Shown: positions 9,706-43,574, counted from the stretch's first letter. The stretch: DNA of 64,000 bases from Candidatus Aminicenantes bacterium (GCA_030669305.1 DAOVDU010000002.1:318-64317); one strand, 5' to 3'. Program-made: numbers and translations. Notes: generated by a model not told the origin, from the letters alone.

Positions 9706-11361
9706 ATGCAAAATAAAAAAACAATCTTAATCGCAGGCATATTTTTTGTCTCTTTTATATTTTTGGGTGTTTTCGTAAATGCTCAAGACCATTGTACTGA
9801 CATAATTGTTGGAAAGAATGCCTCTGTGGATGGATCGGTCATAACCTCCCATACAGGTTGCTGTCCCGAATGCAGGGTCCATGTGGTTCCCGCGCAGACT
9901 TTTAAGAAAGGGGCCATGGCTCCTGTTTATTATGGACTACAAGATGTCAAAAAGCCTTTGTATAAATACGGAAAGATACTCGGATATATACTCCAAGTGG
10001 AAAAAACCTATGCCTATTTTCACACAGGATATCCCCAGATGAACGAGTTTCAATTAGCCATCGGTGAGAGTACGCTCAGCCAGAGGGATGAATTAAAGGT
10101 TGATGAAACGATAGGTAAGCAGATAATGACTATTGAACAGGCTCAATTGTTTGCGCTGCAGAGATGCAAGACGGCAAGAGAGGCAATTAAATTAATCACA
10201 TCATTAGTAGAAAAGTATGGATTTTTGCCATCTTGCGGGCCTGAATCAGAGGCCCTCTGTATAGCCGATCCTAATGAAGCCTGGGTATTAGAAGTTTTCA
10301 GCGTTGGAATGGACTGGGAACCCGGGAAAGGAGAGCTTGGTGCGATATGGGCTGCTCAAAGAGTTCCGGATGACCATGTGGCGATTGTCCCCAACTGGAG
10401 TATTATTAAAGAAATTGACCTAAACAACCCAGACTACTTCATGGCTTCAGAGAATTACATGCAGGTGGCTATTGATTATGGCTGGTATGACCCGAAAAAA
10501 GGGAAGCCCTTTATCTGGCAGGAAATCTATGCACCAATACCTAGAGAATGGGCCGTTAACCGTTTGTGGCTGTTTTACAGCACGGTTGCTCCTAATTTTA
10601 AGGAATGGCCCAAGAAAAAGCTCTCCACAGCTTTCAGCGGATACAATGCATACCATCAGTATCTTGAGGATATTTCCTATTATCCCTTTTCCGTAAAACC
10701 TGAAAAGAGACTGTCAGTGCAGGATGTCATAGCCTTTCAGCGCTCTGTTTTTGAAGGGACAATCTATGACATGACTGCAGATGCTGACTGGTTTGTTCCA
10801 GATGGAAAGGGCGGAATGGTAAAAAGTCCGCTGGCTACCCCTTTTCCTACTAAGGACATGAGGGAGTTGCTGGACATAACCTGGCGTCGTATGGTCTCTA
10901 GAGGAGGCTACGGCATGGTTGCTCAGGTGAGAGGCTGGCTGCCTGATCCTATAGGAGGCGTTTACTGGTTTTACCTCGATAACCAGCATATCAGTACTTA
11001 TGTACCTATTTATGCGGGAGTTCAAGAGATTTCTCCCCTGTATAAAAACTACGACCCCGATAAATTTAGCGAGGATTCTGCCCGTTGGGCGATCGATTTT
11101 GTAGATAACCTTCTCTATCTGAGATGGCAGGATGCCATAAAGGATTTACGGGCGGTTCGTGACCCGATAGAAGCTGAATTTTTTGAAAAACAGGCATCCA
11201 TCGATGCAAAAGCTCTTGAGTTATACAAGAAGGATCCAAAGCAAGCGAAGAAATTCCTGACTGATTACACAAGATCGAACATGGAAAAGATTGTTAAAAT
11301 GTATAAAGATTTGAGAAATTTCCTTATCACAAAATACACAAATAACAAGCTAGGATTATAG
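9706..11361 (+). CDS. Peptidase family C69 dipeptidase
   Basis: Signal peptide then ...AQDHCTDIIVGKNASVDGSVITSHT, the Cys-nucleophile N-terminus typical of C69/PepD-like dipeptidases. Size 551 aa. Confidence 0.85.
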   Translation: MQNKKTILIAGIFFVSFIFLGVFVNAQDHCTDIIVGKNASVDGSVITSHTGCCPECRVHVVPAQTFKKGAMAPVYYGLQDVKKPLYKYGKILGYILQVEKTYAYFHTGYPQMNEFQLAIGESTLSQRDELKVDETIGKQIMTIEQAQLFALQRCKTAREAIKLITSLVEKYGFLPSCGPESEALCIADPNEAWVLEVFSVGMDWEPGKGELGAIWAAQRVPDDHVAIVPNWSIIKEIDLNNPDYFMASENYMQVAIDYGWYDPKKGKPFIWQEIYAPIPREWAVNRLWLFYSTVAPNFKEWPKKKLSTAFSGYNAYHQYLEDISYYPFSVKPEKRLSVQDVIAFQRSVFEGTIYDMTADADWFVPDGKGGMVKSPLATPFPTKDMRELLDITWRRMVSRGGYGMVAQVRGWLPDPIGGVYWFYLDNQHISTYVPIYAGVQEISPLYKNYDPDKFSEDSARWAIDFVDNLLYLRWQDAIKDLRAVRDPIEAEFFEKQASIDAKALELYKKDPKQAKKFLTDYTRSNMEKIVKMYKDLRNFLITKYTNNKLGL

Positions 11362-12305: not shown

Positions 12306-14015
12306 ATGTTAAAGAAACTATTGGCTATTTTAACTTCTGTTTATTTGTTATTCATTGTCATCGGGTGTACTAAGGCATACAAAGGAGAGCCTGCAGATCT
12401 TGTGATTAAAAATGCTGAGATTGTCACAATCGATAAGGACAATCCCAGGGCTGAGGCTGTTGCTGTAAAAGGAGAGTTCATAATCGCCGTGACTTCAAAC
12501 AAAAAAATTAATCAGTATATCGGCGAGGGAACCACAAAAGTGATCGATGCCAAAGGGCGCCTATTAGTTCCTAGTTTCAATGATGCACATATCCACTTCA
12601 CAAGCGGTGGACGCTCAATGATGAATCTGGATTTTCGCTATGTGCACGATGTAGAAACTATTAAACAGATGGTCAAGGAAAAAGTCGCACAGTCTAAACC
12701 CGGAGAGTTGATCGTGGGGAGAGGCTGGGAACACGAAACGTTTCCGGAAAAAAAATGGCCTACAAAAGAGATCCTAGATGTCGTTGCTCCTGACAATCCA
12801 GTAATGCTCAGCAGGGCAGACGGACATTCAGTCTGGGTGAACAGCTACATTATAAAAAGGTCCGAAATAACTAAAGATACACCTGATCCTCCAAACGGCA
12901 CGATTGTCAAAGATCCTGTTACTGGTGAGCCTACTGGCATATTTAAAGAGGGAGCAAGGCGCTTGTTGAAGGTTGAAAGTTCAGTTAAACTTACATCTGA
13001 AGAACAGGAAGAACGTGCTGACAGAGGTTTAGAACTTGCCCTGGGTGCGGCCAGGCGGACCGGCGTGACGAGCATCCAACAACTCAACGGAGAATATGAA
13101 CGTTTTCAAAGATTCAAGGACGAAAGTAAGCTTACCTTACGGGTTACTTTTAACATGGCCATGCCCGTAGATGAGCAAGGCCTTAAGAGGCTTGATGAAC
13201 TTCGCAAACGGTTCCCGCAAGAAAACAACTGGATTCGATTTGGATACTTGAAGATTTTCATCGACGGAACGCTTGGTTCAGGCACAGCTCTGATGTTTGA
13301 GCCTTTTGAAGATGACCCCAGCACAAGCGGGCTGCCTATGATGCCTTACGAGGAATACGAGCGGAGGATTGTTGCCGCAGATGCCATGGGATTTCAGACT
13401 GGCACGCATGCGATCGGCACAAAAGGAAATAACTGGGTTCTCAATGCTATTGAAAAGGCGCTGGAGGTTAACGGAAAACGTAACAGCCGCCACCGCAGCG
13501 AACATGCGCAGATTTTACTGCTCTCTGATATACCGCGATTTGCAGAGCTCGGTGTAATTGCTTCTATGCAGCCGACCCACTGCATCACTGACAAGCGGTT
13601 TGCTGAGAAGAGAATCGGCATGGAGCGGTGCAAAGGGGCCTATGCCTGGCAGAAATTTCTGGATGCTGGAGTTCATATTGCCTTTGGTACCGACTGGGCG
13701 GTTGAGCCGATCGATCCGCTGGAAGGACTTTATGCTGCTGTTACGAGAAAAGACCGTGCAGGCGAGCCGGGCGAAGGGTGGTTCCCGGATCAGAAACTAA
13801 GTATGGAAAAGGCAATCGAACTCTATACGCTTGGTTCTGCTTATGCCGAATTCATGGAAGACCGCAAAGGTATGATAAAGGTCGGGTACTTTGGGGATAT
13901 GGTCATTTTTAACAATGACTTGATGACTATTCCACACGATGAGATCATGCCTTCAAAAGTGGATTATACTATCGTGGGTGGCAAAATCGTCTTCAAAAGG
14001 GAAGGAGTAAAGTAA
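12306..14015 (+). CDS. Amidohydrolase-family metal-dependent hydrolase (amidohydrolase_3-like), lipoprotein
   Basis: VPSFNDAHIHF metal-binding HxH motif. Lipobox VIGCT. 569 aa. Confidence 0.85.
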   Translation: MLKKLLAILTSVYLLFIVIGCTKAYKGEPADLVIKNAEIVTIDKDNPRAEAVAVKGEFIIAVTSNKKINQYIGEGTTKVIDAKGRLLVPSFNDAHIHFTSGGRSMMNLDFRYVHDVETIKQMVKEKVAQSKPGELIVGRGWEHETFPEKKWPTKEILDVVAPDNPVMLSRADGHSVWVNSYIIKRSEITKDTPDPPNGTIVKDPVTGEPTGIFKEGARRLLKVESSVKLTSEEQEERADRGLELALGAARRTGVTSIQQLNGEYERFQRFKDESKLTLRVTFNMAMPVDEQGLKRLDELRKRFPQENNWIRFGYLKIFIDGTLGSGTALMFEPFEDDPSTSGLPMMPYEEYERRIVAADAMGFQTGTHAIGTKGNNWVLNAIEKALEVNGKRNSRHRSEHAQILLLSDIPRFAELGVIASMQPTHCITDKRFAEKRIGMERCKGAYAWQKFLDAGVHIAFGTDWAVEPIDPLEGLYAAVTRKDRAGEPGEGWFPDQKLSMEKAIELYTLGSAYAEFMEDRKGMIKVGYFGDMVIFNNDLMTIPHDEIMPSKVDYTIVGGKIVFKREGVK

Positions 14016-14052
14016 AGTAATAAAATTCCTATACGAATTTCCAAATGCCAAA

Positions 14053-14130
14053 CAAGCATCAAAATCCCAATGACCAAAACTAAAAAAAATTAAGATAATT
14101 AACCTTGTTTTGTAATCTTAGTAATTGAAA
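14053..14130. repeat. 78-nt repeat, copy A (second copy at 22951-23028)
   Basis: caagcatcaaaatcccaatgaccaaaactaaaaaaaattaagataatta..cttgttttgtaat.ttagtaattgaaa is near-identical at both sites. Each copy lies just 3' of a minus-strand gene stop. Confidence 0.8.
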
Positions 14131-14141
14131 CCGGCTTATTC

Positions 14142-14903
14142 CTATTTTACGATTTTTCCTTGAAGGATAAGGATCAAGGCTTTATCACCACCGTCAAGCT
14201 TGGAGACACCAACCACAGTCCTTTCTCCACTTTTTATTGTCAAAGGAGTATTAATAAGAGTTTGATATTTTTTTATTCCTTCATGGAAATAACCTGTAAA
14301 CTGCCTTAACCTCAATTCTAACTGAAAAACATCTTCTTTCTCTTCCCGGACATAACGAGGTACCAATCTAAGCTCTAAATCCAGGTCAGATCCGCCAATA
14401 CGGTGATCAGAATATCCTCCATCCTGAACTCTTAGGAAGGAAGAACCAACTTTATTGTAGTATTTGTAGCTTAATACTTTTTTTAATTCTTTTATCAGAG
14501 GATCAGATTCTAATTTCTTGTCTTGTTCCTTTGCCTTGAGAAATCGGGAAACATTGGAAGCATCCTTTGAACTTTCCCCTATCCCTAAAATCAGGTCCAC
14601 AGTGAACAGTATGTCTACAGGCTTGACGTCGATTTTCTTGAGGAGCGCAAGCATCTTCTCAACAATCTCCGGTGTATCCTGAACCGTAATTATATTCAGC
14701 TCACTCTGGATTCTAATACGGCCGAAGCCTAAGCTTTGATAACTCTGAAGAAGTTCATAGGCCTGTCTTGCCTTGATATATTTAAGCTTAACAAATTCCG
14801 TCTTCAGTTCGGGTTTTTTAGCCTGTCCGGATGAAGCATAGACATTTAAAGAAGCTCCAGCCAAAAAGCAAAGCACTAAAAGGCCTGCTAAAAATTTCTT
14901 CAT
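14142..14903 (-). CDS. Secreted hypothetical protein, possible secretin-N/NolW-like fold
   Basis: Signal peptide. The segment LKYIKARQAYELLQSY...IITVQDTPEIVEKMLALLKKID resembles secretin N-domain patterning (weak). Last gene of the ECF sigma operon. Confidence 0.4.
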   Translation of the reverse strand: MKKFLAGLLVLCFLAGASLNVYASSGQAKKPELKTEFVKLKYIKARQAYELLQSYQSLGFGRIRIQSELNIITVQDTPEIVEKMLALLKKIDVKPVDILFTVDLILGIGESSKDASNVSRFLKAKEQDKKLESDPLIKELKKVLSYKYYNKVGSSFLRVQDGGYSDHRIGGSDLDLELRLVPRYVREEKEDVFQLELRLRQFTGYFHEGIKKYQTLINTPLTIKSGERTVVGVSKLDGGDKALILILQGKIVK

Positions 14904-15421
14904 TTTTTATCCTCCAAATCGAAATTTTTATTAAAGAACCAGACTATTTTTAGCCCGGTATCTTTTGAAACTATTGTCATGGAAATTATGTCCTGTTCTG
15001 ATTTATCCTTAAAACTTTCAAAGAGCTTAGCTTGGGATTCTGCCACCATCCTTGTTCCCGGGATTACTCCCTCTTTGTAAAAACCAGGTCTTATAACAAA
15101 AAAAGTAAGCACAACGGCAAAAACAGCCATCATCACATAAGCCCAGACTTTCCTGAATGGCCACAGAGCAAGAGGCGATAACTCTGGTTCTTTGTCTCCA
15201 ATGGCTATCTTAACAACCTGCTGCCATTCCCTATCTTCCCAATCTTCTCTTTCTTTTGCGAGCCATTCCTTTGTTTTCCCCAAAGACAAAACATAAGAAT
15301 CATATTCATTCCGGCACTCCGGACATTTTTCCATATGAGCTTTAACCTCTGATACTTTGGATTTAGAAATATCAGAACCTACAATCAGAGGAAGATAACG
15401 CTGGACCTTTTTGCATTTCAT
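14900..15421 (-). CDS. Anti-sigma factor, zf-HC2 type with one TM helix
   Basis: HMEKCPECRNEYD zinc-finger motif near the N-terminus and a central TM segment. Translationally coupled to the sigma factor by a 4-nt overlap. Confidence 0.7.
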   Translation of the reverse strand: MKCKKVQRYLPLIVGSDISKSKVSEVKAHMEKCPECRNEYDSYVLSLGKTKEWLAKEREDWEDREWQQVVKIAIGDKEPELSPLALWPFRKVWAYVMMAVFAVVLTFFVIRPGFYKEGVIPGTRMVAESQAKLFESFKDKSEQDIISMTIVSKDTGLKIVWFFNKNFDLEDKK

Positions 15422-15990
15422 CTTTTTACATCCCTTACCTCTACAGGATATATTTTTTCGAATTGTGTCTTTATTTTTTGCCTGGCACGTAACAGATTAG
15501 TCCGGACACTTACAGATGAGCATCCAAGAATCTCTGACGTCTCTTTTATGGAAAATCCTTCTCCGTCCCGCAGGATAAAAACAGCTTTTTCTTTAGGACC
15601 TAAATTTTGAAGGCAGGCCTTGATTTTATTTTTTATCTCTTTATTCAGAAGCTGTTTTTCAGGATCCTGGTTTATGCTGGCAGCCAGACTTTTCTGCCTC
15701 TCTACTATTTCTTCATACTTTTTCTTCTTTCTCAAAAAATCATAGGTGGAATTCACTGTTATTTTGTATATCCAGTTTTGGAAGCTTTCCCCTTTTTTAA
15801 ATTTATAAAGATATTTATAAATTTTAATAAGAGTATCCTGGCAGACCTCTTTTGCTTCTTCCAAATTTTCTGTCATTCGATATGCCATGTTCAAGATCCC
15901 CTGGCGGTAAGGCCGGAGAAGAATCTCAAAGGAAACATCGTCTCCTCTGAGGACTTCCTCAACCAGTTCATCATCATTCTTCATCCACAT
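15418..15990 (-). CDS. RNA polymerase sigma-70 factor, ECF subfamily
   Basis: Region 2 (LIKIYKYLYKFK...QNWIYKITVN) and region 4 HTH (FSIKETSEILGCSSVSVRTNLLRARQKI) are present. Confidence 0.85.
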   Translation of the reverse strand: MWMKNDDELVEEVLRGDDVSFEILLRPYRQGILNMAYRMTENLEEAKEVCQDTLIKIYKYLYKFKKGESFQNWIYKITVNSTYDFLRKKKKYEEIVERQKSLAASINQDPEKQLLNKEIKNKIKACLQNLGPKEKAVFILRDGEGFSIKETSEILGCSSVSVRTNLLRARQKIKTQFEKIYPVEVRDVKR

Positions 15991-16086
15991 TAATATACTT
16001 GTCTTTTGCTAAAAATGTTAACCTAAATTATTCATAAAAACTGCCGATGCCATAATTCATTCTCAATAATATAAATTCTTGAGTGT

Positions 16087-16638
16087 TAGAAAAGGGGTCG
16101 CGTCTCAACATTCAACATTTCTGAGAACGGGTTCAGGTCCCATTTTTCCATACAGAGATTTAATTCATTTGTAAGGGCTTGATTTATCAAGCCCGCCGTT
16201 TATGAATAAATCAAATCCAGACATGTTATCGAAATGTAGGTTTGATGAATCAAACCCCTATATAAGTTGTTGTATTTTGAGAAACATTCTCTTATTTTTT
16301 ATTTTTCCTTTTCCAATAATAATAAACCGGTATTCCCAGTGCGGTTAAAAAGATGCCGGCCAGAGCTTCAACGGGTTTTTCTATCAGCGTATTGAGAAGA
16401 ATGCCTAGTGAAGCGAAAATGAATATAATGGGGACTGCAGGATATCCCCAGGTCTTATACGGAAAGATAAAAATTTCCTTTTTGCGATAGCACCAATTCC
16501 TCGCCATTTTCCTTTATTTTCGTCAGCTGAAATCCTGAAGTGAAAATATCACACTCAAAACGGCAGCGTCAATTGCCAGTGCTCTCCCTTCTCCTCGGCT
16601 GCCATCAGAAGTTCCTGCTGGAAGACCCGAGGTGGAGG
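16087..16638. repeat. 552-bp segmental repeat, copy 1 (copy 2 at 22453-22950, about 90% identical, lacking an internal 54-nt block)
   Basis: The two copies were aligned by eye and are in the same orientation. The repeat contains the hairpin gggcttgatttatcaagccc and a decayed permease 3' end. Confidence 0.85.
16292..16507 (-). pseudogene. C-terminal fragment (71 codons) of an APC-family amino-acid permease
   Basis: ...YKTWGYPAVPIIFIFASLGILLN...GIPVYYYWKRKNKK is a typical APC-permease C-terminus. No upstream transporter body. The copy-2 counterpart (about 22640-22800) has an in-frame stop. Confidence 0.55.
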
Positions 16639-17033
16639 AGGGCGTTGTGCATGAAAAGTGAGGTTTCCTCCTCAATTATGGGAGGATGAGCAGAGTTTTG
16701 CTCTTCAAAACCGGAAAAACATGAATCCGGCGTGATGGCAAGAGTTTCTTTGTTGAGCTCTTCCTTGAGTCTGCCAAGGGTGCTCTCCCAGCGATCTTGG
16801 AATATGTCTCCCATTGCCGTTATTACCACATTGGGCGAGGAGTTGATACAGTCGATGGCTGTGCCTGTACCCCTGCCGCCGCAACCGATGAGACCAACCT
16901 GAATTTTATCCGAACCAGAAGCACGGAGAAAGCCTGTTCTGGACACGGCGGCAGCCAGGGAAATTACTGAGGTTACTTTTATAAAGTCACGTCTGGACAT
17001 ATTCTGTTTTGTTTCCTTGCTTTTCTTATTCAT
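16605..17033 (-). pseudogene. N-terminal fragment of a Tat-exported Gfo/Idh/MocA-family oxidoreductase
   Basis: MSRRDFIKVTSVISLAAA Tat signal plus Rossmann motif VGLIGCGGRG. Terminates after 142 aa where the 552-bp repeat begins. Full-length members are about 400 aa. Confidence 0.55.
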
Positions 17034-17055
17034 GATCTCTCCTTAAAAATATATG

Positions 17056-17410
17056 GGTCAATGTTTCCTAAAAATTATCACAAGCCCGGTAGGCTTCAAT
17101 CACTGCCTTCTCTCCCTCCTTACCGGGCAGGCTTTTGCCATGATCCATGCACAGAACATCATCATACCCTTTGTTGTATATGTGCTTAAAAATATTCTTG
17201 TAATTAATCTCACCAGTGGTAGGCTCCTTACGGCCCGGTGTGTCGCCTAAATGGAAGCTGGCGATCTCCTCCCAGGCCCTGCACTATCAAAGTCCATTTT
17301 GCATAAACACGTTTGGCTGTCTCTATTGCTGCTTTCATCTTCTCTGCCAGCATCTTACGTATCTCTTTGTCCTGGGCGTATCCGGCAAATCTTTTTTTTG
17401 CTCTCTCACT
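17056..17410 (-). pseudogene. Frameshifted C-terminal fragment of a sugar-phosphate isomerase/epimerase (xylose-isomerase-like TIM barrel)
   Basis: Minus-strand translation gives ...EEIASFHLGDTPGRKEPTTGEINYKNIFKHIYNKGYDDVLCMDHGK* in one frame. The upstream part (…AKRVYAKWTLIVQGLGGD) is in another frame. Confidence 0.45.
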
Positions 17411-17712
17411 ATTCCCTCCTTATCATTTTGATTTAGATGTATTTAATAATGACCCATTATCACGAGTCATTCATTTTACGTAAGACAGAGTGACAGCCAA
17501 TCCTGTCACGGGAAAAAAGCTGCTTACTATGTGCAATTTCTTCTTGCTTTTCTGGATGGGATAATAAAAAATATAATGGCTATTTAGCCATCTAATGCAC
17601 GAATTTTTTTTAAACTCATCAAAGTCATATCAGAGAAAGGGGAAACTGATACCAAGAAAATACCGCTGATTGATAAGTTAAAATAGAAAAAACAACTAAT
17701 TGGAGGGAAGCA

Positions 17713-19650
17713 ATGAAGGTTTGGCGATTTGTTATCCTGTCTATGCTTTTTCTTTTTGCATCGAGTGTTGCTCTCGAAGCAGCACAGTTGACTCCAGAAC
17801 AAACTATGAAAAGGCGGCAGCTCTACGATCTTCGTCTTTCTCCCGATGGCTCCAGGATTGCACTGACAGTATCAGAGCCAGTTGAAGGAACCGAGCAAAA
17901 CAGAGACATCTGGGTCTTTGACATAAAGAGCCGCCATCTCAGGAAGTTCACAACTTCTCCAAAATCCGACACCCGGTCCCGTTGGTCTCCAGACGGAAAA
18001 ACGCTGGCGTTCCTGTCAGGACGATCCAAAACCACACAGATTTACATTTTAAGTATGCTTGGAGGCGAAGCAGAGGCCTTGACTGAAACCAAGACAGCAA
18101 TCCGAGCTTTTGAGTGGTCACCCGAGGGCAAACAGATTGCTTATCTCGCCACAGAGCCAGAAACGGAAGAGGAGGAGAAAAGGAAAAAAGATAAGGACGA
18201 TGCCAGAGTCGTAGATCTCGACGACAAGCATCCTCAACTCTGGATTTTAGATGTGGAATCGCGAGAAGTCCGGCAGCTTACCTATGGAAAATGGCGAATT
18301 TCAGAATTTAGCTGGGTGCCGCAGGGAGACCATCTTGTCATATCCGCAACAGATCATCCTCAACCCGAGCTGTTCACAAACCGGATCTATAGGGTCCAAG
18401 TGAGTGATGGAGAAATGAAATTGGTCTCAAGTCCACGCGGATCTTTCCATAGTCTGAAAGTTTCACCAGACGGAAAATTCATCGCCTATGTGGGGGCTCG
18501 TGTTGATGCTCCCATTGCCAGAGACATCTATCTCCAGCCTATTCCAGATGGGCAGCCACAGAATCTTACGAGTTCTTCAATCGATAGACAGATTAGGTCT
18601 TTTTTCTGGCGGAAGGACAGAAGCCTTCTGGCTCTGGTTCAGGCAGGGTTTAACAGCACGTTTTATGCCATTACACAAGACGGCAAGGCAGAAAAACTGG
18701 AAGGCTTTGATGTGAGTCCCTCGAGTTCGTTTGTAGTTGGCCCCGGGCTGCTGGCCTTTGTGGGTCAGTCGGCAACAAAGGCCCCAGAGCTATGGATTTC
18801 ACCACGGCCCGGGCATGCCGAACAGGTCTCTCACTTGAACAAGGAGTGGGACGAAATCGTTCTCACAAAACCTGAGATGCTTCGCTATTCGAGCTTCGAC
18901 GGAACTGAAATCGAAGCCACACTCCTAAAACCTGCAGGGTATAAGGAAGGCAGCCGGGTTCCTCTGTTAGTGCTGATCCATGGAGGTCCGTCAGGAGTTT
19001 GGTCCGACAGGTTCGAAGCTTGGGGCCAACTGCTTGCGGCTCGAGGTTTTGCCGTGCTCTATCCCAATATCCGGGGCTCAATCGGGTACGGCAACGCTTT
19101 TTTAGAGATGAACCGAAGGGACTGGGGTGGTGGCGATTTTAAGGACGTGATGGCAGGTGTTGATTTCCTGATCAAGCAAGGTATTGCTGACCCGGAACGG
19201 CTGGGGGTCGGTGGTTGGTCCTATGGAGGCTACATGGCCGCATGGGCTGTGACCCAAACACCAAGATTCAAGGCGGCTATCTCGGGAGCTCCGATGACCG
19301 ATCTAGCCAGTGAATACGGGACTGAATCCAGCTCCATCAACTCTTACGATACATGGTATCTCGGCACGCCCTACGAAAATCTGGACCTGTTTATCGAAAG
19401 GTCTCCCGTAACCCATGTCAAAAATGTTAGAACACCAACTCTTATTCTTTGTGGCGGGAAGGATACTACGGATCCCATTGGGCAGTGCCAACAGTTTTAT
19501 CGCGGGTTGAAGCGCTACGGTGTTAAAACCGAATTCGTCATATATCCGCGTGAAGGCCACGGAATCCGCGAGGAAAAGCACCGGATAGATTTGCTCAATC
19601 GTGTCCTCGGCTGGTTTGAAAAATATTTAGGAGGGGAGATCAGTCCTTGA
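17713..19650 (+). CDS. S9 family serine peptidase (prolyl oligopeptidase/acylaminoacyl-peptidase type) with N-terminal beta-propeller
   Basis: TolB-like SPDG repeats at the N-terminus. GGWSYGGY nucleophile motif and C-terminal D...H. Signal peptide. Confidence 0.85.
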   Translation: MKVWRFVILSMLFLFASSVALEAAQLTPEQTMKRRQLYDLRLSPDGSRIALTVSEPVEGTEQNRDIWVFDIKSRHLRKFTTSPKSDTRSRWSPDGKTLAFLSGRSKTTQIYILSMLGGEAEALTETKTAIRAFEWSPEGKQIAYLATEPETEEEEKRKKDKDDARVVDLDDKHPQLWILDVESREVRQLTYGKWRISEFSWVPQGDHLVISATDHPQPELFTNRIYRVQVSDGEMKLVSSPRGSFHSLKVSPDGKFIAYVGARVDAPIARDIYLQPIPDGQPQNLTSSSIDRQIRSFFWRKDRSLLALVQAGFNSTFYAITQDGKAEKLEGFDVSPSSSFVVGPGLLAFVGQSATKAPELWISPRPGHAEQVSHLNKEWDEIVLTKPEMLRYSSFDGTEIEATLLKPAGYKEGSRVPLLVLIHGGPSGVWSDRFEAWGQLLAARGFAVLYPNIRGSIGYGNAFLEMNRRDWGGGDFKDVMAGVDFLIKQGIADPERLGVGGWSYGGYMAAWAVTQTPRFKAAISGAPMTDLASEYGTESSSINSYDTWYLGTPYENLDLFIERSPVTHVKNVRTPTLILCGGKDTTDPIGQCQQFYRGLKRYGVKTEFVIYPREGHGIREEKHRIDLLNRVLGWFEKYLGGEISP

Positions 19651-19700
19651 AATTTGAATAATTCAAGATTCATAATTCAAGATTCAAGGGCTAACTCCAT

Positions 19701-19925
19701 TTGATAGGAGAATTCAAGATGCCGTTTTTTAGCATTTCAAAAATAGGGGCCTATGAGACCTGCCCTTTGCAGTATAAATACGCCTATATCGATAGAATAA
19801 AAGTCGAGGCAGAGGATACTGTCGAAACATTTCTCGGAAATATAGTGCACAAAGCGCTGGAGAAGCTGTACAGGGATAAGAGGTTCGAAAAATTGATGTC
19901 CCTGGAGGAGATGAGAGAGAATTGA
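19701..19925 (+). pseudogene. N-terminal fragment of a PD-(D/E)XK (Cas4/RecB-like) nuclease family gene
   Basis: MPFFSISKIGAYETCPLQYKYAYIDRI is the characteristic N-terminal motif of PD-(D/E)XK nuclease family proteins. The ORF stops after 74 aa and is followed by about 450 nt with no ORF. Confidence 0.45.
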
Positions 19926-20374
19926 AACAATTGAGGAAGTTTGGGGAGAAAGAAAAAGGATACAGGTTGAGTGTTTCGAAGAAATAAACTTTAGTTATAA
20001 ATTCTGGCGAAACAATATATAATAGAAAGGAATAATGGGATTATCGGTTCGAGGGAAAAGAGATTGTAGGATCTTCCCTCAAATTTGGAAAAAAAGTGAT
20101 TCATATGGCCTTCTTCAGGATCACCGAGAGTGAAAAGGTGGGAAAAATAGCTGGCTACAGGAGAAGAAGGGGATTTAGAACTGCTTAGTGAGCTAAAATG
20201 GAATAACTTGAAAAGAAGGGCGATTACTCTTATGTAATGTTCTTAAAGTGGCAACTTTACCCCCAAAATTGCTATTCTAAGGCCATATTTGACATAAAAT
20301 TTAGCTTTAACTCCGGAAAAATCAATGAGTTAGCGCAGTCTGACCGCATATCTTAATACGCATATCTTAATAAA

Positions 20375-21067
20375 ATGATTGGAGATGGAAAGAACAACGG
20401 AACCATCAGAATCTATAAAGTTCTTCAATTTCTGGAGAAAGAGCTTAAGGGGCCGAAGCCAGGTTTAGAAGCGCAACTTAAAATGATAACCAATCCCAGG
20501 TCTGGACATAAAGTGTATTATGAGGTGGAAGATTCGTGCAACAAGGCAGGAGTCCTTGTTCTACTGTACCCGTGGATGGACAGGCTTCATCTAGTGTTAA
20601 CTCGCCGGACTAAGCGTGTGGAGTTTCACCAAGGACAGATTTCCTTCCCAGGCGGACGTCAGGAAAAGGGGGAAAGCTTCGCACAAACAGCTCTCAGGGA
20701 AGCCCAAGAGGAGCTCGAAATAGATTCGAGCTCGACCCGAATTCTGGGGGAATTGACTCCTCTCTATATCCCGCCGAGCAACTATTGCATCTATCCAGTT
20801 GTAGCAACGATTGATGTGCGTCCTGATTTTCAGCCTTCAGCACTCGAAGTGGCTGATGTTATCGAGATCCCTCTGGATCATCTGGCCGATCCAAAAAACG
20901 CCCGGAAAGAAATGCGGACCATCAGGGGTGCTGAAGTCGAGGTCCCTTTTTATTCATTCAAAGAATATAAGATCTGGGGTGCCACCGCAATGGTATTGGC
21001 AGAGTTTGTCGAATTGCTAAAAAGGCACAAAGGAGTTAGGAGGAATAATGAAAACCAAAACCTTTAA
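20375..21067 (+). CDS. NUDIX hydrolase, CoA-pyrophosphatase (NudL)-like
   Basis: Nudix box GGRQEKGESFAQTALREAQEELEI. Upstream LLTRR..V..HQGQISFPGG is typical of CoA pyrophosphatases. Confidence 0.8.
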   Translation: MIGDGKNNGTIRIYKVLQFLEKELKGPKPGLEAQLKMITNPRSGHKVYYEVEDSCNKAGVLVLLYPWMDRLHLVLTRRTKRVEFHQGQISFPGGRQEKGESFAQTALREAQEELEIDSSSTRILGELTPLYIPPSNYCIYPVVATIDVRPDFQPSALEVADVIEIPLDHLADPKNARKEMRTIRGAEVEVPFYSFKEYKIWGATAMVLAEFVELLKRHKGVRRNNENQNL

Positions 21068-22424
21068 AATCATAATCTTTCTACTTTTTATAATGTGTTA
21101 TGTCTTTCCGGACATGGCTTTTGCAGAGGCAGAAAAAACACCATCATCCGCAGTATTTGATAAGATTCTAAAAATTATAGAAAAGGAGTATCCATCGCTC
21201 GAAACCCTGTACAAACATCTGCATGCGAATCCCGAGCTTTCTTTACAAGAAAAAAACACATCCAAACGGATCGCTTCAGAATTGGAACAGGCCGGCTACG
21301 GAGTAACCAGGAATGTCGGAGGTTATGGTGTGGTGGGAATAATGAAGAATGGAGAAGGTCCGACTGTTATGATCCGTACAGATATGGATGCACTTCCGAT
21401 CGAAGAGAAGACTGGGCTCCCTTATGCCAGTAAAGTCCGCGCCAAAGATGCACAAGGCAGGGAAGTCTGCGTGATGCACGCATGCGGCCATGATATCCAC
21501 ATGACAGTGTTCATCGGCATGGCGAAACTGCTCAGCCAGATCAAAGACCTATGGAAAGGGACGCTGGTCATGGTGGGACAACCTGCAGAAGAAAGCGGCG
21601 GAGGGGCAAGATCCATGATTGCCGAAGGACTTTTCACCCGTTTCCCCCGGCCGGATTATGCCCTCGCCCTGCATGATGCTCCATTCCCTGCTGGGATGGT
21701 TTCCACCTGTGAAGGCTATATTTTGGCCAATGTCGACTCTGTTGATATCACTGTCCGTGGAGTCGGTGGACATGGAGGGATGCCTCAAGATACAAAAGAC
21801 CCGATAGTCATGGCATCCCAGCTGGTGCTGGCACTACAAACCATAGTTAGTCGAGAAATGGATCCGAACATTCCCGCTGTGGTGACAGTAGGTTCAATTC
21901 ATGGAGGCACCAAACACAATATCATTCCTGATGAAGTTTTTCTTCAGCTCACTGTTCGTTCTTATGGAGACAATGCCCGTAAGAATATTTTGGCCTCTAT
22001 CAAGAGAATCACAAAGGGTATTGCTGTTGCTGCCGGTGTACCTGAAGACCGGATGCCGATCGTTAAAGTTGGAGAAATTCATACGCCTGCCACATACAAC
22101 GATCCAGAATTAACCCGAAGAATAACCAAGGCCTTTCGTGCCATCCTGGGGGATAAAAATGTGTTTACTAGCGAACCCGCCACGGCCGGCGAAGACTTTG
22201 CAGAATACGGCCGTGTAAAACCACGGATTCCTATATGCATATTCTGGCTTGGAGCTGTGGACTCAAAGCTCTTTTTGCGTGCTCGAATACCTGGAGAGCG
22301 GATTCCGACACTTCATTCTCCTTATTGGTCACCGCTTCCCGACATGACGATCAAGACAGGGATGAAAGCCATGGGCGCGGCTGTGTTGGAATTGATGGGA
22401 GATTTCATAGACAAGGAAAGGTGA
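21048..22424 (+). CDS. M20D-family amidohydrolase/peptidase (hippurate-hydrolase-like), secreted
   Basis: MHACGHD metal-binding motif. Signal peptide. 458 aa. Confidence 0.85.
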   Translation: MKTKTFKIIIFLLFIMCYVFPDMAFAEAEKTPSSAVFDKILKIIEKEYPSLETLYKHLHANPELSLQEKNTSKRIASELEQAGYGVTRNVGGYGVVGIMKNGEGPTVMIRTDMDALPIEEKTGLPYASKVRAKDAQGREVCVMHACGHDIHMTVFIGMAKLLSQIKDLWKGTLVMVGQPAEESGGGARSMIAEGLFTRFPRPDYALALHDAPFPAGMVSTCEGYILANVDSVDITVRGVGGHGGMPQDTKDPIVMASQLVLALQTIVSREMDPNIPAVVTVGSIHGGTKHNIIPDEVFLQLTVRSYGDNARKNILASIKRITKGIAVAAGVPEDRMPIVKVGEIHTPATYNDPELTRRITKAFRAILGDKNVFTSEPATAGEDFAEYGRVKPRIPICIFWLGAVDSKLFLRARIPGERIPTLHSPYWSPLPDMTIKTGMKAMGAAVLELMGDFIDKER

Positions 22425-22452
22425 AAAGATGAATCAAGCTCTGGATAAAGTG

Positions 22453-22950
22453 TAGAAAAGGGGTCGGGTCTCAACATTAGACATTTCTTAGAATGGGTTC
22501 AGGTCCCATTTTCCCATACAGAGATTTAATTCATTTGTAGGGGCTTGATTTATCAAGCCCGCCGTATCCCTACATAAGTTGTTGTACTTTGGGAAACATT
22601 CTCTTGTTTTTTATTTTTCCTTTTCCAATAATAATAAACCGGCTTTCCCAGTGCGGTGAGAAAGATGCCGGCCAGAGCTTCAACGGGTTTTTCTATCAGC
22701 GTATTGAGAAAAATGCCTAGTGAAGCGAAAATGAATATAATGGGGACTGCAGGATATCCCCAGGTCTTATACGGAAAGATAAGAATTTAATTTTTGCGAT
22801 AGCACCAATTCCTCGCCAATTTCCTCTATTTTCGTCAGCTGAAATCCTGAAGTGAACATATCACACTCAAAACGGCAGTGTCAATTGCCAGTGCTCTCCC
22901 TTCTCCTCGGCTGCCATCAGAAGTTCCTGCTGGAAGACCCGAGGTGGAGG
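22453..22950. repeat. 552-bp segmental repeat, copy 2 (498 bp)
   Basis: Aligns base-for-base with 16087-16638 except for a 54-nt deletion and scattered substitutions. Confidence 0.85.
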
Positions 22951-23028
22951 CAAGCATCAAAATCCCAATGACCAAAACTAAAAAAAATTAAGATAATTAG
23001 ACTTGTTTTGTAATTTTAGTAATTGAAA
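22951..23028. repeat. 78-nt repeat, copy B, directly abutting copy 2 of the 552-bp repeat
   Basis: 49 nt identical to 14053-14101, then near-identical for the rest. Confidence 0.8.
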
Positions 23029-23071
23029 TTTGTTTGGAATTTGGGATTTTGATTTTGGAATTTCATTTATA

Positions 23072-35244: not shown

Positions 35245-35369
35245 TCGATTACTCCTTAAACAGAAGATATTTCACAATAATAGCTTTAGATAGATTGGAT
35301 GTCAAAAAAATAAAACTAAATTTCAAAAAATAAATGAATAGCAATTAGTGAAAAGCTCAAATCTGATTT

Positions 35370-35505
35370 CAGTTAGTCTGTTACTCGGTTAATCAGTTAA
35401 TCAGTTAGTCTGTTAAATATTTTAATTAAAATAACAGACTAACAGACTAACCGATTAACAGTTCGTTTTATCGCATTTTTAACTAGACAAACCAGATAAA
35501 CCAGA
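35370..35505. repeat. Composite inverted array of 8-bp TAAC-core repeats (YNGTTANT x6 / ANTAACNG x4) around a palindromic centre, followed by the caaaccagataaaccaga motif
   Basis: cagttagt ctgttact cggttaat cagttaat cagttagt ctgttaaa tattttaattaaaa taacagac taacagac taaccgat taacag. Member of a family also at 57262-57532, 63148-63276 and 49921-49965. Confidence 0.8.
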
Positions 35506-35634: not shown

Positions 35635-36405
35635 ATGCGTGGATTGAAAGACAAAAGAGTTCTCATTACCGGGGGAGCAAGAGGAATCGGGGAGGCTATA
35701 GCGGCTCGTTTTCTGGAAGAAGGATCGTGCGTGGTGATCCTGGATAAAGATGAAGCAGGATGTCGCGATATTAAACAAAAGATACCAGCTTTAACAGGGA
35801 CATTAGTTGCCGATGTCTCTAATCCTATAGAGGTTGAACAAGCTTTTATTGAAATGGACCAGATGATGAATGGATTAGATATACTTATCAATAATGCAGG
35901 GATCAGCATGCGAAAGCCATTTTTAGAGATTGACCCTAAAGAGTGGAGCGAAGTTATCCAGGTGAATCTTAACGGCTTGTTCTTTATTGCACAGAAGGCG
36001 GCCCGGATCATGCTGATTGGGGAGGGGGGAGTCATTCTAAATATGGGCTCAACAAATGGCTTAATGGGTTATCCGTTCTATGCGGCTTATAATGCATCGA
36101 AAGCCGGTGTCATAGAGTTGACAAGGTCAATGGCACTGGAGTTAGCTCCAAGCGTACGTGTAAATGTTATATGTCCTGGTTACATCTTGACACAGATGCA
36201 GAAAGCGGAATACACTTCTGAAATGCTGCGAGATTGTGAAAAAAGAGTGCCTCTCGGAAGACTTGGTAAACCAGAAGAAGTTGCTGCCCTTTTTGTTTTT
36301 CTGGCTTCCGATGATGCAGAATTTATCACCGGGCAATATTTTGTGATTGATGGAGGAGAGATTGCAGGAGGACTGGCAAGCCAAAGTCCAACAAAAAAAC
36401 TGTAA
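35635..36405 (+). CDS. SDR-family oxidoreductase (FabG-like)
   Basis: TGGARGIGEAIA Rossmann motif, NNAG, and the YAAYNASK catalytic Tyr-x3-Lys. Confidence 0.85.
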   Translation: MRGLKDKRVLITGGARGIGEAIAARFLEEGSCVVILDKDEAGCRDIKQKIPALTGTLVADVSNPIEVEQAFIEMDQMMNGLDILINNAGISMRKPFLEIDPKEWSEVIQVNLNGLFFIAQKAARIMLIGEGGVILNMGSTNGLMGYPFYAAYNASKAGVIELTRSMALELAPSVRVNVICPGYILTQMQKAEYTSEMLRDCEKRVPLGRLGKPEEVAALFVFLASDDAEFITGQYFVIDGGEIAGGLASQSPTKKL

Positions 36406-36499
36406 AATGTCGGCATGCCGACATTCAGAGAATTATTTTCTTGATATTTTATTTTTTTTCATATATTTTACATGTGGACATAAATGTTGGAGGAGATGT

Positions 36500-37264
36500 T
36501 TGATCATTGCAATTGCTAACCAGAAAGGTGGAGTAGGTAAAACAACTACTGCTTTAAACGTATCGGCTGCGCTTGCATTTATGGGAAAAAATACTCTTTT
36601 AGTTGATACGGATCCACAAGGACACAGCACTGTATCTTGTGTGAATGATCCTCATAGGTATGGAAAATCTCTCTATAATGTGATGGTTAACAGGCAGGAA
36701 AAGATAGAAAATATTATAGTAAAATCAACGATTCCAGGTCTAGATGTAGCCATATCAAAAATATCTATGGCTAAATTAGAGCCTTCTTTGCTTGGGGAAA
36801 TTGATGGACACTTTAGGCTTAAAGATGTGCTAGAGAATGTTAAAAAGAAATATAAATTCATTATTATAGATACACCTCCTACTTTAGGGCTGCTAACACT
36901 TAATGCATTAGTAGCTGCAGACGCAATAATAATACCGATTCAGTCATCATACCTCTGTTTAGAGGGAACAGACGACCTTCTGGAGACAATAGATAAAGTA
37001 AAGAGGGTAACAAATACTAATTTGAGGATTATTGGAGTACTAATAACTCTTCATGATAAAAGAACAAATATATCAAAGGATGTGGTAAAAAGAATAAAAA
37101 AGGTATTCGGAAAAAAAGTTTTTAATACATATATATCAAGAAGTGTAAAATTAGAGGAAAGTCCTGCATATAAGGAGTCAATTTTTACATATGCTCCTTA
37201 TTCTGTAGGGGTATTGCAATACAAAAAAGTTGTAGAGGAGATAATAAGACGTGCAAAGAACTAG
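36500..37264 (+). CDS. parA: ParA/Soj-family partition ATPase
   Basis: Deviant Walker A IANQKGGVGKTTT. The ORF track extends to 36347 over the SDR gene. The probable start is TTG at 36500, 7 nt after GGAGGAG. Confidence 0.75.
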   Translation: MIIAIANQKGGVGKTTTALNVSAALAFMGKNTLLVDTDPQGHSTVSCVNDPHRYGKSLYNVMVNRQEKIENIIVKSTIPGLDVAISKISMAKLEPSLLGEIDGHFRLKDVLENVKKKYKFIIIDTPPTLGLLTLNALVAADAIIIPIQSSYLCLEGTDDLLETIDKVKRVTNTNLRIIGVLITLHDKRTNISKDVVKRIKKVFGKKVFNTYISRSVKLEESPAYKESIFTYAPYSVGVLQYKKVVEEIIRRAKN

Positions 37265-43489: not shown

Positions 43490-43574
43490 TGGGCAGAGCG
43501 GGACTCGAACCCGCACTCCTTCAACAGGAACTAGGTCCTAAGCCTAGCGCGTATGCCAATTTCGCCACCTGCCC
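43490..43574 (-). tRNA. tRNA-Leu, anticodon TAG (class II with long variable arm)
   Basis: Minus-strand sequence GGGCAGGTGGCGAAATTGGCATACGCGCTAGGCTTAGGACCTAG..GCGGGTTCGAGTCCCGCTCTGCCCA folds as a cloverleaf. Anticodon loop is CTTAGGA. T-loop is GTTCGAGTC. 7-bp acceptor stem. No encoded CCA. Confidence 0.8.

What the first reader, a model, noticed from the sequence alone, without database searches (positions are those of the whole stretch)
16087..16638. 552-bp segmental repeat (two copies about 6.4 kb apart) carrying a decayed permease 3' end and a conserved hairpin
16087-16638 and 22453-22950 are about 90% identical and in direct orientation. Copy 2 lacks a 54-nt block that in copy 1 holds the palindrome gtttgatgaatcaaac. 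Both copies keep the hairpin gggcttgatttatcaagccc.

Both copies include the last about 70 codons of an APC-type permease, but neither is attached to a permease body. Copy 1 still has an intact 71-codon ORF and copy 2 has acquired a stop.

This pattern suggests duplication or mobilisation of a gene fragment followed by decay.
Basis: seen in the sequence. Interest (0 to 1): 0.65.

Follow-up and report, generated by a model that had tools for sequence, protein, structure and literature searches.

The report
Duplicated permease relic with REP hairpins
A real two-copy, half-kilobase direct repeat in an uncultured Aminicenantes genome is a dead remnant of an amino-acid transporter gene, fused to non-coding DNA and tailed by common bacterial "REP" hairpins; it brackets a block of compositionally distinct genes and looks like ordinary genome rearrangement and decay, not a new kind of element.

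Summary
The repeat is real. 16087-16638 and 22453-22950 are direct copies, 474/498 (95%) identical, plus one 54-nt indel, with sharp ends. Independent assemblies of the same population support five of the seven junctions.

Each copy has three parts:
- A 175-nt head with no protein or permease homology, carrying promoter-, RBS- and ATG-like signals.
- Only the last ~57 codons (not ~70) of an APC/APA amino-acid permease. This block is 93% identical to a real Aminicenantaceae permease gene.
- A tail built around GTAG-tagged REP palindromes.

Both copies share the same head|permease breakpoint, so the truncation came before the duplication. Later, copy 2 gained a stop codon and lost 54 nt holding REP units; a ~95%-identity relative still has them.

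The "conserved hairpin" is not private to this repeat. The same 20-mer occurs more than 120 times in MAGs of many phyla, 87% of the time with the CTAC/GTAG tag.

A second 78-nt repeat (14053-14130 and 22951-23028) abuts copy 2. The layout is therefore nested: R2-[sigma operon]-R1-[5.8-kb block]-R1-R2. The inner block holds the four highest-GC genes in the window. No integrase, transposase, terminal inverted repeats or target-site duplication were found.

Most likely cause: recombination-mediated insertion or duplication in a decaying peptidase island. Interest is low.

The parts
16087..16638 (-). R1a: copy 1 of the 552-nt composite repeat. Read on the minus strand it runs head > permease relic > REP tail.
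   Evidence: left junction and the 54-nt block confirmed by independent unitig L133
22453..22950 (-). R1b: copy 2 (498 nt), lacking the 54-nt REP block
   Evidence: left junction and absence of the 54 nt confirmed by L010/L011. The orthologous copy in a ~95%-identity relative (L007/L008) still has the 54 nt.
16463..16638 (-). Head of R1a (copy 2: 22775-22950). Non-coding, origin unknown. Carries promoter-like TTGACG/TTGACA-N16-18-TAT(T/G)TT, an AAGGA Shine-Dalgarno-like motif and an ATG. Its last 70 nt are identical in the two copies.
   Evidence: no similarity to permease DNA or protein above shuffles; a six-frame chimeric query found no protein hit at E<=10; promoter-like sites; fold not unusual, z -1.3
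16292..16462 (-). Permease relic: last ~57 codons (PYKTWGYP...KRKNKK*) of an APC/APA-family amino-acid permease (copy 2: 22604-22774)
   Evidence: 93% nt identity to the real permease 3' end in L006, 78% to L001, 69% to L005, all ending at 16462/63; matches residues 371-426 of a ~437-aa permease only; protein hits named APA antiporter / amino acid permease
16292..16507 (-). 71-codon ORF of copy 1 (14 non-permease codons + 57 permease codons). Its counterpart in copy 2 (22604-22819) has TTG for ATG and a TAA at 22787-22789.
   Evidence: no Pfam hit; intact in relatives L007/L008 as P0001
16171..16194 (+). REP unit A in copy 1: tag GTAA (mutated GTAG) + palindrome GGGCTTGATTTATCAAGCCC
   Evidence: the same 20-mer gave >120 exact hits in GTDB genomes, 122/141 followed by CTAC
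22537..22560 (+). REP unit A in copy 2: GTAG + GGGCTTGATTTATCAAGCCC
16200..16253 (+). 54-nt block present only in copy 1. Contains REP unit B (GTAG 16236-16239 + GTTTGATGAATCAAAC 16240-16255) and a degenerate half unit (ATAAATCAAATCC).
   Evidence: the 22-nt palindrome recurs in >=30 places in other genomes; present in L007/L008, so it was lost from window copy 2
16087..16170 (-). Non-REP distal part of the tail, private to this lineage. The whole tail 16087-16300 is strongly structured as RNA.
   Evidence: fold z -5.2; no match in any fetched locus; no Rfam match at E<=1
14053..14130 (+). R2a: 78-nt second repeat, 12 nt downstream of the Secretin_N gene's stop. Lacks the inverted partner arm.
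   Evidence: both junctions confirmed by L133
22951..23028 (+). R2b: 96% identical to R2a and directly abutting R1b. With the inverted arm 23033-23068 it forms a long hairpin just after the M14 peptidase stop, so it is probably the native copy.
   Evidence: hairpin z -4.2; R2b|D junction confirmed by L216-L218, with L216 ending exactly at 22951
14131..16086 (-). Block B between R2a and R1a: ECF sigma factor, zf-HC2 anti-sigma and Secretin_N protein. Low GC (0.378).
   Evidence: Pfam; GC
16639..22452 (.). Block C bracketed by the two R1 copies: truncated Gfo/Idh/MocA oxidoreductase (16605-17033, minus strand; homology ends about 16710), S9 peptidase, PD-(D/E)XK nuclease fragment (19701-19925), NUDIX and M20 peptidase. 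These are the four highest-GC genes in the window.
   Evidence: Pfam; GC 0.468-0.504 against a mean of 0.40; GC3 0.455-0.531 against 0.353+-0.059, Mann-Whitney p 8e-4

Best explanation
R1 is a low-copy segmental repeat made of dead DNA. I do not think it is a mobile element or a functional locus.

Shown directly:
- Each copy is a composite. It has a 175-nt non-coding head with promoter-, RBS- and ATG-like signals, the last ~57 codons of an APC/APA amino-acid permease, and a tail organised around GTAG-tagged REP palindromes.
- Both copies share the same head|permease breakpoint. One internal deletion therefore destroyed the permease first, and the relic was duplicated afterwards.
- After duplication the copies diverged by ~5%. 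Copy 2 lost its start codon, gained a stop, and lost a 54-nt stretch made of REP units.

Inferred:
- Locus b (M14 gene > R2 hairpin > head > relic > REPs < M20 gene) looks like the permease's native site.
- The present layout is A-R2a-B-R1a-C-R1b-R2b-D. That is two nested pairs of direct repeats around two compositionally different gene blocks.
- In bacteria, this layout is the footprint of homologous-recombination events. Either circular or tandem intermediates integrated Campbell-style through R1 and through R2, or tandem duplications were followed by deletions. The setting is a flexible, decaying peptidase / amino-acid-catabolism island.
- Once present, the direct repeats allow RecA-mediated loop-out of block C (6.4 kb) or of the whole 8.9-kb insert.
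- The REP hairpins originally served as the 3' extragenic elements (terminator/stabiliser type) of the permease. They explain the indel, but they did not move the repeat.
For: Repeat and sharp ends.

Independent assemblies support five of seven junctions and break at homologous points inside the repeats.

Permease origin limited to ~57 codons, with the same breakpoint in both copies.

Head non-coding. Promoter/SD-like signals.

REP identity of both palindromes. Family definition: PMC3733652.

The 54 nt are present in the relative's ortholog of copy 2.

No integrase or transposase in 1-39.5 kb.

R2 repeat abuts R1b, and the R2b hairpin sits in its native context.

Block C is compositionally distinct.

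Other gene relics in block C (truncated oxidoreductase, PDDEXK fragment, and a population variant with a 98-nt deletion in the S9 gene).
Against: - The historical pathway is not resolved. No single duplication or insertion produces R2-B-R1-C-R1-R2, and no close relative with an 'empty' site was found (the metagenome scan gave only <=61%-identity M20 homologs with no synteny).
- The copy number of R1 in the rest of the source genome could not be counted, because the source genome was not among the fetched loci.
- The right-hand junctions of both R1 copies are not independently confirmed.
- Block C's GC3 is only the extreme of a generally GC-richer left half of the window, so a foreign origin is suggestive, not proven.
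- The hint that A-R2-D was once contiguous (an extra 10/11-bp stem) rests on low-complexity sequence, and the fold energies are mixed.
- The 71-aa ORF is intact in copy 1 and in two relatives, so some function is not excluded.
Confidence: 0.6

Rival explanations
1. R1 is a non-autonomous mobile element (MITE/REPIN-like, or mobilised by a REP-associated Y1 transposase) that captured a permease fragment and transposed to a second site.
For: Sharp, identical ends in two contexts, and in the relative L007, where the flank at the tail end differs by ~30 nt. The unit contains GTAG REP units, which are proposed substrates of RAYT transposases.
Against: No terminal inverted repeats and no target-site duplication at the four ends. 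REPs lie at one side only, and the head end has no REP or hairpin shared by both copies. There are only two copies in 64 kb, and REP units of this family occur nowhere else in the window. No transposase or RAYT was detected in the annotated part of the window. No hits in viral contigs. The head, the tail's non-REP part and R2 are absent from all 120 REP-bearing loci of other genomes.
Confidence: 0.07
2. The two R1 copies are attL/attR-type repeats of an integrative island (block C) that targeted the 3' end of the permease gene.
For: Direct repeats containing a gene's 3' end bracket a 5.8-kb block of distinct composition. This is the classical look of islands inserted into gene 3' ends.
Against: No integrase or recombinase in block C or nearby. 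Neither repeat is joined to an intact target gene. Both copies carry the same prior deletion junction and the same 175-nt head, so the repeat is far larger than, and different from, an att core. The repeat lengths (~500 and 78 nt) fit homologous rather than site-specific recombination.
Confidence: 0.1
3. R1 is a duplicated functional minigene. Its own promoter and RBS drive a 71-aa two-helix membrane micro-protein derived from the permease C-terminus, with REP hairpins as terminator.
For: Promoter-like and SD-like signals lie upstream of an in-frame ATG. The ORF is intact in copy 1 and in L007/L008. The last 53 residues are 94% identical to a real permease, with mostly synonymous differences.
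Against: Copy 2 in this genome has lost the ATG and carries a stop at codon 11. Substitutions between the copies are not biased towards synonymous changes: 3 non-synonymous and 2 synonymous nucleotide changes in the 57-codon block, and the rate in the ORF (4.2%) is similar to the flanking non-coding parts at 2.3-6.2% (read). Promoter-like matches are only modestly above shuffle expectation (23 against 15.5). No Pfam family. The synonymous bias against L006 is what an inherited, recently dead gene end would also show.
Confidence: 0.08
4. Assembly artefact: the MAG contig mis-joins or duplicates a single repeat. For example, the true state could be a chromosome without block C plus a separate circular C+R1 molecule.
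For: MAG contigs are prone to errors at repeats. The two right-hand junctions (16638|16639 and 22950|22951) are not covered by any independent contig, and all short-read unitigs stop inside the repeats.
Against: The copies differ at 24 positions plus a 54-nt indel, spread along the unit. Copy-specific left flanks are reproduced in unitigs from at least 5 sequencing runs. A ~95%-identity relative has the copy-2 arrangement next to M20, and its contig also breaks in R1. The longest identical stretch at the right end is only 70 nt, shorter than a read.
Confidence: 0.05

Closest known systems
Gene remnants / segmental direct repeats flanking flexible genomic islets, generated by homologous (Campbell-type) recombination or by tandem duplication followed by deletion
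   Same: Low copy number, direct orientation, hundreds of bp, ~95% identity, no recombinase, bracketing a compositionally distinct gene block, and lying among other pseudogene fragments.
   Different: Two different repeats (552 and 78 nt) are nested and abut each other at one end. The repeated unit is itself a deletion product (non-coding head fused to a permease end). The donor or empty-site state has not been observed.
GTAG-tagged REP elements (repetitive extragenic palindromes; Di Nocera et al. 2013, PMC3733652; Nunvar et al. 2010, PMC2817692)
   Same: The two palindromes in R1 are 16-20-nt perfect palindromes preceded by an unpaired GTAG. They sit downstream of a (former) ORF between convergent genes. 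Identical units are multi-copy in other Aminicenantes and many other phyla, often as inverted pairs with covarying stems.
   Different: In this window the family occurs only inside R1 (3 units). No RAYT was looked for or found. The REPs are passengers in the 552-nt repeat, not its cause. The same exact 20-mer across more than 10 phylum-level labels is broader than the genus- or order-level spread usually described.
APC-superfamily APA-type (basic amino acid/polyamine antiporter-like) permeases of Aminicenantes, e.g. MGB2845871.1 and MCK4431373.1
   Same: The last 53-57 residues (final two transmembrane helices and the basic tail) are 94% / 74% identical.
   Different: About 380 N-terminal residues are missing, there is no Pfam domain hit, and one copy has a stop codon. 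It is a pseudogene fragment, not a transporter.
Integrative islands that duplicate the 3' end of their target gene (attL/attR)
   Same: Direct repeats containing a gene's 3' end on both sides of an inserted block.
   Different: No integrase, no intact target gene, and the repeat includes unrelated head sequence and a pre-existing deletion junction.

Membership tests
APC/APA amino-acid permease (gene) | Sequence homology to the family | tested here: met
   phmmer hits at E 1e-10 to 1e-38, named APA antiporter / amino acid permease. tblastn against residues 371-426 of a full permease, E 3e-21. 93% nt identity to L006.
APC/APA amino-acid permease (gene) | Complete ~12-helix transporter body (AA_permease_2 domain) | tested here: not met
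   No Pfam hit for the 71-aa ORF. Only the last ~57 codons are present, and there is no other permease sequence in the window.
APC/APA amino-acid permease (gene) | Open reading frame maintained | tested here: not met
   Copy 2 has ATG>TTG and a TAA at 22787-22789. Copy 1's ORF starts in non-permease sequence.
GTAG-tagged REP | Short (20-40 bp) palindrome able to form a stem-loop | tested here: met
   DNA folds of -8.5, -8.4 and -5.4 kcal/mol, z -4.1 to -5.0.
GTAG-tagged REP | Unpaired GTAG tetranucleotide at one end | tested here: met
   GTAG at 22537-22540 and 16236-16239; GTAA (one change) at 16171-16174. 122/141 occurrences in other genomes carry the tag. 254 GTAG+palindromes against 1-20 for control tags.
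GTAG-tagged REP | High copy number within a genome | tested here: inconclusive
   At least 11-12 exact copies in the sampled parts of two other Aminicenantes MAGs (CS1-C017, HyVt-373). Only 3 units in this window, all inside R1. The rest of the source genome was not available.
GTAG-tagged REP | Extragenic, downstream of ORFs / between convergent genes | tested here: met
   The units lie after the permease relic's stop and face the M20 3' end at locus b.
GTAG-tagged REP | Associated RAYT (Y1 transposase) gene in the genome | not tested
   None in the annotated ORFs of 1-39.5 kb. The genome-wide search was not possible.
MITE / non-autonomous transposon | Terminal inverted repeats | tested here: not met
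   No inverted arms at the ends of R1 (ends read).
MITE / non-autonomous transposon | Target-site duplication | tested here: not met
   The flanks of the two copies share no short direct repeat (GAGTGT|...|AGGGCG against AAAGTG|...|CAAGCA).
MITE / non-autonomous transposon | Many dispersed copies | tested here: inconclusive
   Two copies in 64 kb. None in viral contigs or in 120 REP-bearing loci. The source genome was not searchable.
Integrative island with att repeats | Integrase/recombinase in or beside the bracketed segment | tested here: not met
   Pfam on all ORFs >=130 aa across 1-39.5 kb found none. The small ORFs in the gaps were listed but not scanned; the PDDEXK_1 call for the 19701-19925 fragment comes from precomputed Pfam hits on the L009/L010 contigs.
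Integrative island with att repeats | One repeat continuous with an intact target gene | tested here: not met
   Both copies have the same head|permease deletion junction.
Integrative island with att repeats | Cargo of atypical composition | tested here: met
   GC and GC3 of block C are the highest in the window, p 8e-4.

The most novel reading that the evidence does not exclude
The repeated unit is not junk but a minigene born from a dead transporter. Its own promoter and RBS would drive a 71-aa two-helix membrane micro-protein, made of 14 new codons fused in frame to the last two helices of an APC permease, and terminated by REP hairpins. It would then have been duplicated and be in the course of losing one copy.
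Probability: 0.07. Interest if true: 0.45.

Novelty: new member of a known kind. Interest (0 to 1): 0.22.

Why it matters
It matters little as a mechanism. It is a clear example of how pseudogene ends and REP clusters persist and get duplicated in flexible regions of an uncultured lineage (Aminicenantes).

It is useful in practice:
- The repeats are points where short-read assemblies of this population break.
- They predict recombinational loss of a 6.4-kb or an 8.9-kb segment, i.e. strain-level gene-content variation in a peptidase island.

The by-product may be worth more than the finding. One exact GTAG-tagged REP 20-mer, together with covarying relatives, is spread over MAGs labelled with more than ten phyla of mostly anaerobic uncultured bacteria. 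That deserves a dedicated REP/RAYT survey.

Tried and rejected
- **Synteny in relatives.** I searched JGI metagenome contigs with the neighbouring M20 peptidase. Only <=61%-identity homologs turned up, without synteny. Dead end.
- **Source genome.** I looked for it among the 120 genome-contig hits and did not find it. Exact-protein look-ups failed for the 71-aa ORF, the sigma factor, the 142-aa ORF and P0022. The listing of cluster members gave no accession for the source contig.
- **Is the head decayed permease?** DNA Smith-Waterman against L006, L001 and L005 scored no better than shuffles, and tblastn showed no upstream segments. Rejected.
- **Is the head the end of another gene, e.g. the truncated oxidoreductase?** A six-frame chimeric protein query gave nothing at E<=10. 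The oxidoreductase search returned only short N-terminal fragments, so its C-terminus could not be compared.
- **tRNA-like or known RNA in the tail.** ARAGORN and Rfam, at gathering score and at E<=1, found nothing. Rejected.
- **Phage or viral origin.** Zero hits for tail and head probes in IMG/VR.
- **Permease end plus REP tail as a native arrangement elsewhere.** None of the 120 REP-bearing loci has a permease 3' end.
- **Single-step models.** A single tandem duplication, a circle junction, and a triplication followed by deletions each fail to give R2-B-R1-C-R1-R2. At least two events are needed.
- **Reconstructed A|R2|D hairpin as proof of an ancestral empty site.** It gives an extra 10/11-bp stem, but in low-complexity sequence and with mixed energies. 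I keep it only as a weak hint.
- **'Recurrent standalone permease ends in Aminicenantes'.** I rejected this as a pattern. The short hits are an ascertainment effect of a short query: contig-edge partials, one nonsense mutant (L215), one frameshift (L005) and one 5'-deleted relic (L001-L004).

Full report

Yes. Self-comparison of the window finds two direct repeats that together make the reported unit: 16087-16199 / 22453-22565 and 16256-16555 / 22568-22867. A global alignment extends them to 16087-16638 and 22453-22950, and similarity is lost abruptly on both sides.

Identity is 106/113 before and 368/385 after a single 54-nt gap, i.e. 474/498 = 95%.

The specific claims check out:
- Copy 1 alone has the 54 nt (16200-16253), which hold GTAG+GTTTGATGAATCAAAC.
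- Both copies have GGGCTTGATTTATCAAGCCC.
- Copy 1 has an intact 71-codon ORF (16292-16507, minus strand).
- Copy 2 has TTG for ATG and a TAA at codon 11 (22787-22789).

**2. Is it an assembly artefact?**

Largely excluded. The window comes from a 64,690-nt NCBI MAG contig (P0022). Logan unitigs from several other sequencing runs of the same population (99.6-100% identity) reproduce the copy-specific flanks:
- L133 equals window 13980-16324. It spans A|R2a, R2a|B, B|R1a and the 54-nt block.
- L009-L012 run from block C into R1b. L010 and L011 cross the indel site and lack the 54 nt.
- L216-L218 run from the M14 gene through R2b, and L216 ends exactly at 22951.

All of these stop inside the repeats at homologous positions (16324 and 22636), as expected for a true two-copy repeat in a de Bruijn graph. 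A ~95%-identity relative (L007, L008) has the copy-2 arrangement beside M20/NUDIX, and its contigs also break inside R1.

Only the two right-hand junctions (16638|16639 and 22950|22951) lack independent support.

**3. Anatomy**

Read on the minus strand, R1 has three parts.

*(a) Head (16638 to 16463).* It shows no similarity to permease DNA or protein beyond shuffled controls. No protein homolog appears in any of the six frames, in a search of 5.8 billion proteins at E<=10. Its fold is unremarkable (z -1.3). It does carry a promoter-like TTGACA-18-TATGTT (copy 2; TTGACG in copy 1), an AAGGA motif and the ATG of the ORF.

*(b) Permease relic (16462 to 16292).*
- It is 93% identical to the 3' end of a real, in-frame permease gene of an Aminicenantaceae MAG (L006). 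It is 78% identical to L001 and 69% to L005.
- Every alignment stops at 16462/63 in copy 1 and at 22774/75 in copy 2.
- Against a full ~437-aa permease, only residues 371-426 match, once per copy and nowhere else in the window.
- Pfam does not recognise the 71-aa ORF.
- So the relic is ~57 codons, not ~70.
- Both copies share one deletion junction. The gene was therefore already dead when it was duplicated.

*(c) Tail (16291 to 16087).* It is strongly structured (RNA fold z -5.2). It has no Rfam or tRNA match.

**4. The hairpins are REPs**

The hits are in GTDB genomes labelled Aminicenantes, Omnitrophota, Atribacterota, Elusimicrobia, Planctomycetes, Thermodesulfobacteriota, Nitrospirota, Zixibacteria, Riflebacteria and others. 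Many genomes carry several copies.

Further properties of these hits:
- In 122 of 141 occurrences the 20-mer is followed by CTAC, i.e. GTAG+palindrome on the other strand.
- It is often paired in inverted orientation with a second GTAGGGG-xxxGATTyATCxxx-CCC hairpin whose stem differs by compensatory changes (TCG/CGA, TTC/GAA, CGC/GCG, TTT/AAA).
- In the 854 kb fetched there are 254 GTAG+perfect palindromes, against 1-20 for control tetranucleotides.
- The palindrome inside the 54-nt block is a second subtype of the same family and recurs at least 30 times in those loci.

These are the defining features of GTAG-tagged REP elements: a short palindrome, an unpaired GTAG tag, a position downstream of ORFs between convergent genes, and frequent dimers (PMC3733652).

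In this window the family occurs only inside R1. The 54-nt indel is therefore the loss of REP units from copy 2. The relative's ortholog of copy 2 still has them.

**5. Context: a second, nested repeat**

A 78-nt repeat, 96% identical, lies at 14053-14130 (R2a) and at 22951-23028 (R2b). R2b abuts R1b with no gap.

The layout on the plus strand is:
- amidohydrolase (A)
- R2a
- block B: Secretin_N protein, zf-HC2 anti-sigma, ECF sigma
- R1a
- block C: truncated TAT-signal Gfo/Idh/MocA oxidoreductase, S9 peptidase, 68-74-aa PD-(D/E)XK fragment, NUDIX, M20 peptidase
- R1b
- R2b
- M14 peptidase (D)

(Pfam.)

R2b pairs with an inverted arm (23033-23068) to form a long hairpin immediately after the M14 stop (z -4.2). 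R2a has no such partner, so R2b looks native and R2a derived.

At locus b the order is M14 > hairpin > promoter-like head > relic > REPs < M20. This reads like an intact intergenic organisation, which suggests the permease originally lay there.

The four genes of block C have the four highest GC values of 43 genes (0.468-0.504 against a mean of 0.40). Their GC3 is 0.455-0.531 against 0.353+-0.059 (p 8e-4). Block B is low (0.378).

No integrase or transposase is present among the ORFs of 130 aa or more in 1-39.5 kb. The wider region is a peptidase / amino-acid-catabolism cluster: penicillin amidase, beta-lactamase-fold protein, two C69, two S9, M20 and two M14 peptidases, an amidohydrolase and an aldehyde:ferredoxin oxidoreductase.

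**6. Mechanism**

Shown:
- The repeated unit is a composite relic.
- Truncation preceded duplication.
- After duplication there was ~5% divergence, a stop codon and REP loss.

Inferred:
- Two nested pairs of direct repeats (78 nt outside, ~0.5 kb inside) around two gene blocks of different composition are the typical footprint of RecA-dependent events. These would be Campbell-type integration of circular or tandem intermediates through R2 and through R1, or tandem duplications trimmed by deletions.
- No single event generates R2-B-R1-C-R1-R2, so at least two are needed.
- There is a weak hint that A-R2-D was once contiguous. The A-side flank (GAATTTCCAAA) can extend the R2b hairpin by 10 of 11 bp. 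This sequence is low-complexity, and the fold energies do not consistently favour the reconstruction.
- The repeats now allow recombinational loop-out of 6.4 kb or 8.9 kb.

**7. Rivals**

| Rival | Main evidence against | Probability |
|---|---|---|
| Mobile element (MITE/REPIN-like) | No terminal inverted repeats or target-site duplication; REPs at one end only; two copies; head, distal tail and R2 are private to this lineage; no viral hits | ~0.07 |
| Integrative island with att repeats | No integrase, no intact target gene, shared deletion junction | ~0.1 |
| Functional 71-aa minigene | Copy 2 is disrupted; substitutions are not biased to synonymous sites. The ORF is, however, intact in copy 1 and in relatives | ~0.08 |
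| Misassembly | See section 2 | ~0.05 |

**8. Comparison with known kinds, and novelty**

The unit is a permease pseudogene fragment. It meets the homology test but fails the domain and ORF-integrity tests. It carries passenger GTAG REPs and sits in a recombination-shaped flexible islet. All of these are known kinds, so this is a new instance in a poorly studied phylum. The cross-phylum identity of the REP 20-mer is the most unusual thing seen, but it lies outside the finding itself.

**9. Verdict**

The feature is ordinary genome decay plus recombination. Interest 0.22.

Noticed in passing
window 16171-16194, 16236-16257, 22537-22560; loci L013-L132: The hairpin GGGCTTGATTTATCAAGCCC with a GTAG tag is an exact-match, multi-copy REP in MAGs labelled with more than 10 phyla (Aminicenantes, Omnitrophota, Atribacterota, Planctomycetes, Nitrospirota, Thermodesulfobacteriota and others). 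It is often paired with covarying GTAGGGG-xxxGATTyATCxxx-CCC partners. This phylogenetic spread is unusually broad for one REP sequence. No RAYT was looked for.
   Followed up: partly
window 35362-35479, 57246-57536, 63239-63294: Intergenic arrays of 8-nt units (GTTAGTCT/GTTAATCA and, inverted, TAACAGTC/TAACCGAT) are arranged as long inverted repeats around AT-rich centres (arms 57271-57322 / 57482-57533, 85% complementary). One array lies just upstream of an SDR gene and parA/parB (36347-38084). Function unknown.
   Followed up: no
window 16605-17033 (minus strand) and 19701-19925 (plus strand): Two more gene relics lie inside block C. One is the N-terminal ~108 aa (TAT signal + Rossmann start) of a Gfo/Idh/MocA oxidoreductase, cut off about 70 nt before R1a. 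The other is a 68-74-aa N-terminal fragment of a PD-(D/E)XK nuclease.
   Followed up: partly
L010 against window 19335-19432: A unitig from run SRR26080964 lacks 98 nt of the S9 peptidase gene, with 12 nt of microhomology at the join. This would frameshift the gene, so a subpopulation may be losing this gene.
   Followed up: no
L215 (about 632-634), L005 (about 9930-10046), L001-L004 (about 9975-10246): The orthologous permease is broken in other Aminicenantes assemblies: CAA>TAA nonsense at GTFE*IF (L215), a frameshift in a T-run (L005), and a 5'-deleted ~90-codon relic between a racemase gene and a 799-aa gene (L001-L004). In L005 and L215 the permease sits directly upstream of an Amidohydro_3 gene. 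Probably an ascertainment effect of searching with a short query.
   Followed up: partly
window 1-33000 against 33000-64000: The left half (peptidase / amino-acid-catabolism cluster) has clearly higher GC3 (about 0.36-0.53) than the right half, which holds housekeeping genes such as parAB and rho (about 0.22-0.36). The whole peptidase region may be a compositionally distinct island.
   Followed up: no
window 43826-43866 and 45017-45057: A 41-nt direct repeat (98% identical) flanks the 335-aa ORF at 43904-44911, just beside tRNA-Leu (43490-43574).
   Followed up: no
window 22425-22452 against L007: Between the M20 stop and R1b the window has about 30 nt (containing GATGAATCAAGC, which resembles a REP half-site) that the ~95%-identity relative lacks. 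In the relative, the M20 stop codon is the TAG that begins R1.
   Followed up: no
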